A DNA stretch of 64,000 nucleotides, taken from contig CM059437.1 of the NCBI GenBank assembly GCA_030390025.1, positions 25,234,001 through 25,298,000 of the forward strand, read 5' to 3'. A program made the position numbers and the translations under genes. Shown here piece after piece: positions 40,101 through 43,100 of this stretch (its first letter is position 1; every line of letters begins with the position of its first letter). The notes beneath the pieces were generated by a model, which was given only the letters and a program-made list of their open reading frames with translations, was not told the DNA's origin and did not search any database. The DNA comes from Squalus acanthias (lineage: Eukaryota).

Positions 40101-43100
40101 GATTAAACTTTTGAGGGTTTTTTTTACATGGCTACCTTTAAAGTTTAAAATAGATATAAAATTTCTATTCAACATTGTGTTCTCAGTGTAACTACAAATC
40201 TGATCAAATGCACTGACGTTGAGACAACTTTTAAGGTGGAGTTGGTACAATACTTTTGGTACAAGTCCAGGACTTTGGTTTGAGTTCAGTTGGATAGATT
40301 GAAAGCTATCGCTTTCTGTTGACTATAAGGATCCTAAGTGAAAGGAGTTTGGTTAGTCTCAATCCAGTTCCAAGTGTACACACACTGACAAGAGAATGCC
40401 ATCTACAAGTTGGCACTGAACTGTGAATTTTCACTTTGAGGCACCAGGATAGTTGATGTAAAATATGAGAATGTTTACACTGGTGCCACCAGAAGTGCTA
40501 ATCTGAAGTTAGCAATGAAGCACATTGGGGCACAGCAAAGGTATATTCATTCTTGATCTTTAAGTGCTTGACATTAGCACTGGGTGTCCAAAACAGAAAT
40601 GTTCCATTCCCAAAAAATGACACATTTCACCTTGAAAAGGCCAAAATTTCGCCAAAACAAAAGAGAACTTTTTCTTGAAAGTTTCAGAGCTCAGCTGTGA
40701 GATACTTTTTCATGCTTGGTGTAAATCAAATTGAATTAATGAGATAACAACCGAAAATGCTGGCAACACTCAGCAGGTCAGGCAGCATCGAGGAGTGAGA
40801 AACAGTCAACGTTTCGAGTCGGGGACCCTTCGTCAAAACTAATGAGATGTTTGAATATATCGAAGAAAATGTTCCAGCACTGTAATCCTAGTTTTTAAGT
40901 TTAAAATATTTTATACATTAGCTTCAGCTTTGTTTTTTTTTTAACCACCTAACAGGAAAGACCCAGATCCAGTCCGTGGAACCATACACCAAACAGCAGT
41001 TGACTAACATGTCCTTTGCTGACATTATCATAAGTTATAAGATCATGGATGCCACCAATATCCTAGTGTCACCACTTGTGTATTTGTATCCTGACATTCC
41101 AAAGGAAGAGGCATTTGGAAAATATTGCTGCACTGAACCTCCAGAAGCTATTGATCCCAATGATCCAGGTGAAGCTTTGAATACTGCAGAAACTCTCATA
41201 TTTGGTCTTTTGTATTCTTGTTTCAACTATAAGTTCAGAATGTTGGTAAGAAGGAGCTGTTCATTTTGCAACTTGAAAGCTAGTCCAAACTACGAAGTTA
41301 AGCATCAGCTAGCCAACTCTAAAGTGAGAGAAGCCAGAGACATTATAACTTCGATAAACAACATTTTAAGCTCCGACACTTCAGTTACCTGAAGCACTAT
41401 GTGCGTAACAGAGCAGCTTCGTGTTTCAGCACAATCAGTCCTTTAGACCAGATTTGGAGCTGAGCTGGAGTCGCTCAATCCCAGAAAGTTCTCTATCAGT
41501 TAAGTATGCAATACTCAGCTGATGGTTTTTCTGCAGTGATGTGGCTTTGGATTGGCTGCCAGGCAGAGCCAAATGCCGTCTTCCATTGCAATGAATGGCT
41601 GTACTGCAGGCTGCATGGACCGCTTCCCATAACCGATACCACCATGTGACCGCTTCCCATAAACGATACCACCAAATGACCACTTCCCATAACCGATACC
41701 ACATGTGACAGCTTCCCGTAACCGATACCACCATATGACCGCTTCCCATAACCGATACCACCATGTGACAGCTTCCCATAACCGATACCACCTGAGCAGC
41801 TGAGGAGCCAAAGGCTCTCCAAGATAGCAAATTCGGTGATATTTCTGAAATATAGAATGTTACAGCACAGAAATGGACCATGCAGCCCATCAAGTCTATG
41901 CCACGCTTTTTCTCTGCATAAGCCACCTAGTTTAATTCCCCTTTAGCTTGTTCGTCGCTACCCTAAAATTTTGTTCTTTTTTGAACAGTTGGCTAATTCC
42001 ACATTCTAATTGTTTAATTTTTGTAATCTCTCCTTCAATTTTCCTAATTATCTAAAATTTGCTCCCTCTCATTACAGTCTTACTGGCCAGTAGAAACAGT
42101 TTATCATTATTTACGTTATCATACCCCTTCATTATCTTGAAGACCTCTGCCAGGGCACTCCGTAACCTTCTGCACCCCAGTGAAAAAGCCACAACATCTA
42201 AAGTTCCCTCCATAACTGTGACCTCCCATCCTTTGTAACCTCCCAGTGAATCTGTTCTGCACCTTTTCCATTGGTTTTATATCTTCTAATGAGGTGCATT
42301 AAGCTGTACTCCATTCTCCTTTTAGGAACATAGGAACAGGAGCAGGCCATTCGCCCCCTCGAGACTGTTCCGCCATTCAATTAGCTGAACTGTACCTCAA
42401 CCCTATTTACCCGCCTTTGCTTCATATCCCTGTTCTCTTAAATTTCTTTCAACTTTGGTACCTTTGTGTTATCTAAACACCTAGAGCTTACTTTCTCTTC
42501 CAAGTTACCTTCTTTACTCTCTTGCTTTTCCTCTCCTCCCCATTATATTTTTGAACCATCCCTCGCAACCCTTGTTAACAGTGTAATGATTTTAGTCCTA
42601 GCTCTGTATATGTGTAGGCCATCTTGTCAGTACAGCTCCCTCCAGCTCCAGAACTGGACCCAATGCATCAGAACGTTTCCCTCCTACACCGTGTGTCTTA
42701 GCGCACGTTTATCTCCTTAAAGTAGCGAGTCATGAGATTGCCTCTTAAACCTGACTTTTGAAGGTCTTTTTGAGAGACCTGATTCTTGTTCTTCCCTACG
42801 TTTCTGGTTCCACCAGGAAATATAACTTCAGCTGATCCATGCCCTCATAAAACTTTCTGTACCCGCAACACACCATTTAGGACTCCCGTTTCTATCGTCT
42901 ACTTACTATCAAATCCCCACTACCACTGTGTCCCTGCAGTGAACTATCTTCCCTCACCCCCCACCCTCCCCTGAGTTGTTGTCCTTAGAACAAATATTCA
43001 GTGTTGAAAACTTATTTTCTGACTGAGAAGTCAAGTAGCTAATACAAATAGATTAGGAGGATAGAAAATGGAAGCCTATATTCTTCAAATTTATATCCTT

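What the first reader, a model, noticed from the sequence alone, without database searches (positions are those of the whole stretch)
41618..41792. Minisatellite inside STAT3 built from STAT-binding motifs: candidate autoregulatory array
Seen: each ~30-bp unit carries TTCCCATAA, and unit 4 carries TTCCCGTAA (41713-41721). Established: TTCCCGTAA is the core of the high-affinity m67/SIE STAT1/STAT3 site; TTCCCATAA fits TTN5AA and is its CpG-deamination product; STAT3 induces its own transcription and STATs bind tandem sites cooperatively through N-domain contacts. Spacing is about three helical turns. Inference: a six-site STAT array in intron 21 whose copy number or methylation could tune feedback.
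Basis: partly seen in the sequence, partly recalled or inferred. Interest (0 to 1): 0.7.

Follow-up and report, generated by a model that had tools for sequence, protein, structure and literature searches.

The report
Shark STAT3 intron minisatellite
A short six-copy DNA repeat in an intron of a shark STAT3 gene contains one good and five weak look-alikes of the site that STAT proteins bind, which is most likely a coincidence and has not been shown to be a feedback switch.

Summary
In detail: a 6 x 30-bp minisatellite (41614-41792) lies in intron 21 of a shark STAT3 gene, with five TTCCCATAA and one TTCCCGTAA. Scored with measured STAT1 energies, unit 4 is the best single site in 64 kb and the array is the top 180-bp stretch. 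Yet all six sum to only 0.78 of one optimal site, and TTCCCATAA is about 13-fold weaker than optimal. The six motifs are one event, amplified. A random 30-mer carries a site that good with p about 0.008 (roughly 0.07 over the window's 9 arrays), which is unremarkable in a genome-wide scan. The G in unit 4 is more likely a gain than an ancestral base lost by deamination (8 vs 9 steps). The motif is not detectably more conserved than the rest of the unit (p = 0.26). Spacing of 29-30 bp is marginal for N-domain tetramers. Only one site holds a CpG. Copy-number variation, orthologues and binding are untested. Best reading: a neutral local minisatellite. A weak feedback enhancer gets about 10%. The scan's index holds no look-alike.

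The parts
41614..41792 (.). Minisatellite, 6.0 copies of a 30-bp unit (the unit as it stands at 41737-41766: GACCGCTTCCCATAACCGATACCACCATGT); sharp edges; single locus in the window
   Evidence: TRF; pattern search, 6 of 6 matches inside the array; self-BLAST; flanks fall to background similarity, 11-14 of 30
41713..41721 (+). TTCCCGTAA, M67/SIE-type STAT site in unit 4; +1.12 kT from optimum; best single STAT1-scored site of the 64 kb; probably a derived A-to-G change
41624..41632 (+). TTCCCATAA, unit 1; weak STAT-like 9-mer (+2.57 kT), also a TGGGAA (RBPJ/Ikaros-type) word on the minus strand
41654..41662 (+). TTCCCATAA, unit 2 (weak)
41684..41692 (+). TTCCCATAA, unit 3 (weak); unit 3 is 29 bp
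41743..41751 (+). TTCCCATAA, unit 5 (weak)
41773..41781 (+). TTCCCATAA, unit 6 (weak); sister copy of unit 4
41169..43212 (+). STAT3 intron 21 (GT..AG, 2044 bp); the array lies 445 bp from the donor and 1420 bp from the acceptor
   Evidence: human exon numbering recalled
18993..43828 (+). Shark STAT3 coding region, 23 coding exons from ATG to stop
   Evidence: tblastn with Mustelus STAT3 P0004, splice junctions, stop codon read

Best explanation
A locally born, low-copy minisatellite with no selected function. One 30-bp intron stretch that happened to contain TTCCCATAA was duplicated head to tail (by slippage or unequal exchange; inferred). The last step was probably a two-unit block duplication that gave units 3-4 and 5-6, which share diagnostic changes (shown). 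It then gathered about 8 independent mutations, one of which (A to G in unit 4) made an M67-type STAT site. Activated STAT dimers may well touch the unit-4 site in vitro or at low occupancy (inferred from STAT1 energies), but nothing indicates that this affects STAT3 transcription.
For: Six motifs are one event. A random or shuffled 30-mer holds an equally good site at p = 0.008; there are 9 arrays in this window alone, giving about 0.07, and a scan over many transcription-factor genes will meet such coincidences (inference). 16 sites as good as or better than TTCCCATAA lie elsewhere in the window. Summed affinity is 0.78 of one optimal site. 1 of 8 mutation events falls in the 9-bp motif against 2.4 expected, p = 0.26. 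The A-ancestral history costs 8 steps against 9 among 92 valid duplication trees. 2 of 90 possible single substitutions raise the site by 1 kT or more, so one gain among 6 substitutions is unsurprising. Spacing is at the outer edge of tetramer feasibility. The unit also contains RBPJ/Ikaros-, MYB-, E-box- and ETS-like words (consensus words recalled). More than a million human minisatellites exist, and 49% of genes hold a reference tandem repeat (PMC8096271 passages).
Against: The array is the top-scoring 180-bp stretch of 64 kb (0.78 vs next 0.37), and only 0.47% of 6000 random 30-mers amplified six-fold reach it. None of the other 8 arrays has a site within 3.7 kT of optimum. The one change inside the motif improves it. 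CpG o/e is 1.18 in the array against 0.41 in the window, which fits youth but also low methylation. 30 bp lies close to the last of five feasibility peaks, 31-32 bp. The conservation test has little power (8 events), and the parsimony margin is one step; it vanishes if tree order is unconstrained (8 vs 8).
Confidence: 0.7

Rival explanations
1. Weak cytokine-responsive intronic enhancer. After gp130-type signalling a pSTAT3 (or STAT1/5) dimer loads on the unit-4 site and recruits further dimers to the flanking weak copies through single N-domain contacts at about three helical turns. This adds to promoter-based self-induction of STAT3, or of a neighbouring gene.
For: Best single site and best 180-bp cluster in the window, nominal p = 0.005-0.008. 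The DNA-contacting residues named in PMC5737217 lie in segments identical between shark and mammal. One-contact feasibility at 30 bp is 13 against 98 at the optimum, so not zero. STAT1 tetramers form on a GAS plus non-GAS pair (PMC4029728 passages). About 5 tandem SPI motifs give mild reporter activation (PMC13373173 section 11). Mutating the promoter GAS does not abolish STAT3 induction in all tissues, so other elements may exist (PMC12303475 passages).
Against: Five weak copies; summed affinity is under one optimal site. Unit 4's upstream neighbour is at 29 bp, where feasibility is near zero. No motif-specific conservation. The array is 22.6 kb downstream of the ATG. In the MORC3 study, tandem repeats with large motif clusters showed no general gene-regulatory activity (PMC13373173 section 13). 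No binding, accessibility, polymorphism or orthologue data.
Confidence: 0.1
2. The unit was carried in by a decayed transposable element or belongs to a dispersed satellite family, so the same unit occurs at many loci and its place in STAT3 means nothing.
For: The window is rich in dispersed repeats. The second-best STAT-like sites, at 17343 and 38721, sit in two copies of one dispersed repeat. An earlier, unchecked note reports a satellite born from a LINE in this genome (e1-7938461).
Against: No second copy of the unit or its flanks in 64 kb. No look-alike in the scan's index. No transposon-type Pfam hit in 4 of 4 open frames over the array. The 4 hits among 1.84 billion proteins are unrelated repeats. 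The genome itself was not available.
Confidence: 0.15
3. The array is a functional homotypic cluster for another factor, such as RBPJ/CSL or Ikaros (TGGGAA in 5 of 6 units), MYB or an E-box factor, and the STAT match is incidental.
For: TGGGAA is the RBPJ consensus in the table of PMC7897836 and occurs in 5 of 6 units; other words recur too.
Against: Short words of this kind occur in any 30-mer; no null was computed for them and no functional data exist.
Confidence: 0.03
4. The array is an exon of an antisense gene for a Gly/Tyr-rich structural protein (on the minus strand each unit reads [10 protein letters not shown]).
For: All three minus-strand frames are open across the array; weak Lamprin hits at E = 0.029 and 0.49; a CAG/G at the array's right edge on the minus strand.
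Against: The hits are far below the Pfam cut-off (14.7 and 10.8 vs 34 bits). A 1-bp deletion between units 3 and 4 shifts the frame. Only 1 of 6 substitutions is synonymous in that frame (worked by hand). No homologue found.
Confidence: 0.02

Closest known systems
Intronic and promoter minisatellites/VNTRs that carry transcription-factor sites (e.g. serotonin-transporter intron 2 VNTR, NF-kB and myc/HLH-binding minisatellites; seen as cited in PMC8096271 passages)
   Same: Intronic head-to-tail array of a unit of tens of bp with a TF-like word repeated once per unit.
   Different: Those have shown length polymorphism and binding or reporter effects; here neither is shown. Here the matching factor is the host gene's own product.
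IFNB1-MRE, a tandem-repeat enhancer in a FOCAD intron with 45 PU.1 motifs (PMC13373173; abstract, sections 11 and 13 read)
   Same: Tandem repeat in an intron that builds a homotypic motif cluster near an immune gene.
   Different: 45 motifs against 6 (five of them weak); motif clusters conserved across mammals; necessity and sufficiency shown. Synergy there grows with large clusters, and small ones give only mild activation.
STAT3 promoter GAS/SBE autoregulatory element (Narimatsu et al. 2001, seen only as cited in PMC12303475 passages)
   Same: A STAT-type site in the STAT3 locus that could feed back on STAT3.
   Different: That element is a single promoter site tested by knock-in mutation. 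This is a repeat in intron 21, 22.6 kb downstream of the ATG, untested. The shark promoter was not located in the window.
Tandem GAS tetramer sites of STAT5/STAT1 (PMC4990345; introduction passages, Results part 1 of 2 and Discussion read)
   Same: Neighbouring GAS-like 9-mers on roughly the same helical face.
   Different: Preferred centre-to-centre distance is 20-21 bp, with minor peaks near 15, 26 and 31 and background beyond 31. The array has 29-30 bp and no canonical TTCN3GAA.

Membership tests
Minisatellite | Head-to-tail copies of a unit of 7 to several hundred bp | tested here: met
   Period 30, 6.0 copies, 88% matches; definition from PMC8096271
VNTR | Copy number varies among individuals | not tested
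   Two samples of the species hold 0.91 and 0.87 of the sampled words of a 1.2-kb stretch that includes the array, which says nothing about copy number; no read or contig comparison was obtained
Dispersed satellite / transposon-borne repeat | Unit or flanks recur at other loci | tested here: inconclusive
   None in 64 kb or in the scan index; no genome held
STAT (GAS/SIE) binding site | Canonical TTCN3GAA palindrome | tested here: not met
   0 of the window's 16 matches lie in the array
STAT (GAS/SIE) binding site | Match to a site or consensus known to bind STAT1/3 | tested here: met
   Unit 4 = M67 core; the other five fit TTCCN(G/A)(G/T)AA but score +2.57 kT
STAT (GAS/SIE) binding site | Bound by activated STAT in vitro or in vivo | not testable with these tools
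   Needs EMSA or CUT&RUN
STAT tetramer (tandem GAS) element | Spacing at a feasible N-domain distance (best 20-21 bp) | tested here: inconclusive
   29-30 bp: two-contact feasibility 0.02-2.0 vs 110, one-contact about 2-13 vs 98, in a STAT5A model
Tandem-repeat enhancer (MRE-type) | Motif kept while the rest of the unit diverges, within or between species | tested here: inconclusive
   Within the array 1 of 8 events falls in the motif vs 2.4 expected, p = 0.26, low power; no orthologue found
Tandem-repeat enhancer (MRE-type) | Motif-dependent enhancer activity on a target gene | not testable with these tools
   Needs reporter or deletion assays
Structured non-coding RNA | Rfam match or stable fold | tested here: not met
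   0 Rfam matches in the window; fold z = +1.0, 167 of 200 shuffles fold as well

The most novel reading that the evidence does not exclude
A shark lineage has gained a second, repeat-built STAT3 feedback element inside STAT3 itself. Tandem amplification multiplied a weak STAT site to six copies at about three helical turns, and a later point change upgraded one copy to an M67-type anchor. pSTAT3 nucleates on it and spreads, and allele length tunes the gain of self-induction. It would be a transcription factor's autoregulatory enhancer caught in the act of being born from a minisatellite.
Probability: 0.08. Interest if true: 0.6.

Novelty: new member of a known kind. Interest (0 to 1): 0.2.

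Why it matters
As it stands it matters little: intronic minisatellites with TF-like words are very common, and this one shows no sign of selection. It shows how a tandem repeat turns one chance motif into an apparently striking cluster. If binding and motif-dependent activity were shown, it would be a compact natural case of an autoregulatory enhancer arising by repeat expansion in a central immune and stem-cell regulator, testable with a 180-bp reporter. No description of a STAT3 intronic minisatellite appeared in the listings of literature searches (titles and abstract starts only; subscription papers are largely missing).

Tried and rejected
Whole-genome copy search: no genome is held. Read- or contig-level comparison of individuals and species was not obtained, so copy-number variation and orthology stay open. 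Exact 21-mer scans: 0 hits in viral contigs; 1 hit in metagenomes, which is a single 23-bp match inside a 343-aa bacterial-type ORF without tandem copies, rejected as chance. Search for orthologous introns through open frames: the word-index protein search could not be made; the HMMER search of representatives gave 4 hits, all unrelated repeat proteins. Pfam on 4 open frames: only two sub-threshold Lamprin hits. Rfam 0 hits; RNA fold not stable. Older degenerate extensions of the array: none, the flanks are at background. Shark STAT3 promoter with GAS plus CRE: not located in the 19 kb upstream of the ATG, so no comparison was possible. Unconstrained parsimony did not separate A- from G-ancestry (8 vs 8); only order-respecting duplication trees did. 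PMC4074809 and PMC5561029 (passages) gave nothing decisive. No STAT3-specific energy matrix was found; a STAT1 matrix was used. No bioRxiv supplements were consulted; they could hold relevant STAT3 binding data.

Full report
Setting. The window is from a cartilaginous fish. The exon upstream of the array translates to the end of the STAT3 SH2 domain, 97% identical to Mustelus asterias STAT3, 94% to Callorhinchus and about 81% to bony vertebrates; the best PDB matches are STAT3. tblastn with the Mustelus protein maps 23 coding exons on the + strand from 18993 to about 43828 (22 rows, the last covering two exons; four weak off-gene rows ignored). The array lies in the 2044-bp intron 41169-43212, which is intron 21 by human numbering (recalled), 22.6 kb downstream of the ATG.

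The observation. TRF finds 6.0 copies of a 30-bp unit at 41614-41792 with 88% matches. Five units carry TTCCCATAA and unit 4 carries TTCCCGTAA at 41713-41721; spacings are 30, 30, 29, 30, 30. The edges are sharp, since the flanks match the unit at background level. Neither unit nor flanks recur in the 64 kb. There is no Rfam match and no stable RNA fold.

How good are the sites? None of the window's 16 canonical TTCN3GAA sites is in the array. TTCCCGTAA is the core of the M67 probe (PMC4029728 passages), and TTCCCATAA fits a JASPAR-derived consensus TTCCN(G/A)(G/T)AA (PMC7897836 table passage). I scored sites with the Spec-seq energy matrix for STAT1 (PMC5737217, parts 1-3 of 5 and supplement S7; column order inferred from the consensus; additive model; STAT1, not STAT3). 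The segments holding the DNA-contacting residues are identical in shark and mammalian STAT3. TTCCCGTAA is +1.12 kT from optimum (3-fold weaker) and the best single site in the window. TTCCCATAA is +2.57 kT (13-fold weaker), and 16 equal or better sites lie elsewhere in the window. The array sums to 0.78 of one optimal site, which makes it the top 180-bp stretch (next 0.37, median 0.08).

Is it more than chance? Six copies are one event. A circularised 30-mer from the window holds a site as good as TTCCCATAA in 0.8% of 31,876 trials, and a shuffled unit in 0.8% of 20,000. A random 30-mer amplified six-fold reaches the array's summed affinity in 0.47% of 6000 trials. The window has 9 tandem arrays (10 TRF rows, one a duplicate), giving about 0.07 overall, or about 0.016 if only the 2 arrays with 4 or more copies count. 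None of the other 8 has a site within 3.7 kT of optimum. So the coincidence is mildly notable within the window. Across a genome scan with many transcription-factor genes, many intronic minisatellites and free choice of motif, such matches are expected repeatedly (inference). The same unit also contains RBPJ/Ikaros-, MYB-, E-box- and ETS-like words (consensus words recalled, RBPJ TGGGAA also).

History of the array. Eight columns vary. Units 3 and 5 share one change and units 4 and 6 another, which points to a two-unit block duplication. Among the 92 valid tandem-duplication trees, an A ancestor with one A-to-G gain in unit 4 costs 8 steps, and a G ancestor with deamination losses costs 9. Without the order constraint the two tie at 8, and conversion or deletion were not modelled, so this is a lean, not proof. 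The CpG next to the motif is intact in 6 of 6 units, and only 1 deamination-type change is seen at the unit's two other CpG columns. CpG o/e is 1.18 against 0.41 for the window. Thus TTCCCATAA is probably the original word, not a decay product. One of 8 events falls in the 9-bp motif against 2.4 expected (p = 0.26, low power), so motif conservation is not shown. That the one change improves the site is not surprising: 2 of 90 single substitutions do so by 1 kT or more.

Cooperativity and methylation. In the STAT5A tetramer model that tracks genome-wide site spacing (PMC4990345, Results part 1 of 2 and Discussion), two-contact feasibility is about 110 at 20-21 bp, 2.0 at 30 and 0.02 at 29. One-contact feasibility is 98, 13 and about 2. 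The last peak is at 31-32, and observed frequencies reach background beyond 31. 'Three turns' is therefore on the right face but at the limit of reach, and unit 4's upstream neighbour is at 29. Only the unit-4 site has a CpG. Methylation did not alter STAT1 binding in vitro; for STAT3 at the GFAP site, reports conflict (PMC7897836 passages). Known STAT3 self-induction runs through a promoter GAS, though other elements may act in some tissues (PMC12303475 passages). I could not locate the shark promoter.

Relatives. No genome is held, and no read-level comparison was obtained, so VNTR status and orthology are open. The scan's index has no look-alike. The one metagenome hit is a chance 23-mer in a bacterial-type ORF, and viral contigs gave none. 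A HMMER search with an open minus-strand frame over the array and flank gave 4 unrelated repeat proteins. Pfam shows no transposon domain, only sub-threshold Lamprin hits from the Gly-Tyr reading of the minus strand, which is frameshifted and unconstrained.

Comparison with what is known. It is a minisatellite (met). It has the layout of TF-site-bearing VNTRs (PMC8096271 passages) and of the PU.1 tandem-repeat enhancer of IFNB1 (PMC13373173 abstract and sections 11, 13). Those are defined by polymorphism, conservation or measured activity, none of which is shown here. In that study about 5 motifs gave mild activation, and large clusters showed no general gene-regulatory activity.

Verdict. Observation confirmed; interpretation partly supported. 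Most likely (0.70) a neutral local minisatellite whose unit happens to hold a weak STAT-like word, with one copy later improved by a point change. A repeat-borne origin (0.15), a weak feedback enhancer (0.10), a cluster for another factor (0.03) and an antisense exon (0.02) are the rivals. Shown: array, motifs, gene position, relative predicted affinities, unit relationships. Inferred: mechanism of expansion, direction of the A/G change, absence of function. Novelty: new member of a known kind. Interest 0.2.

Noticed in passing
window 43570-43571 (STAT3 exon 23): The position homologous to the mammalian STAT3-beta alternative acceptor (Leu-Asp codons of RTLDSL; mammalian site recalled) reads GG, not AG, so this shark gene seems unable to make STAT3-beta by the mammalian route.
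   Followed up: partly
window 41165-41175: The exon 21 donor is a single GT; the tandem donor that gives mammalian plus/minus Ser701 forms (recalled) is absent, and the residues before the phospho-tyrosine differ from mammals.
   Followed up: partly
window 46665-47260: By eye, a ~600-bp element with ~26-bp terminal inverted repeats flanked by TA on both sides, holding the 66-bp tandem dimer at 47065-47197; looks like a non-autonomous Tc1/mariner-type element.
   Followed up: no
window 16582-17398 and 37954-38764: Two 85%-identical copies of an ~820-bp dispersed repeat, upstream of the ATG exon and in intron 20; each carries TTCCCGGCA, among the second-best STAT1-scored sites of the window.
   Followed up: partly
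window 41614-41792, minus strand: The unit has no stop codon in any minus-strand frame and reads as Gly-Gly-Ile-Gly-Tyr repeats with sub-threshold Lamprin hits; a CAG/G sits at the array edge. Judged incidental.
   Followed up: yes
window 41850-41990 and 42316-42430: The first stretch resembles a retroposon 3' end in reverse orientation (resemblance recalled, no hit); the second matches several dispersed copies in the window.
   Followed up: no
window 22149-22248: A second young minisatellite in STAT3 (25 bp x 4.0, 93% matches) in a CpG-rich stretch of intron 4; no STAT-like site.
   Followed up: partly
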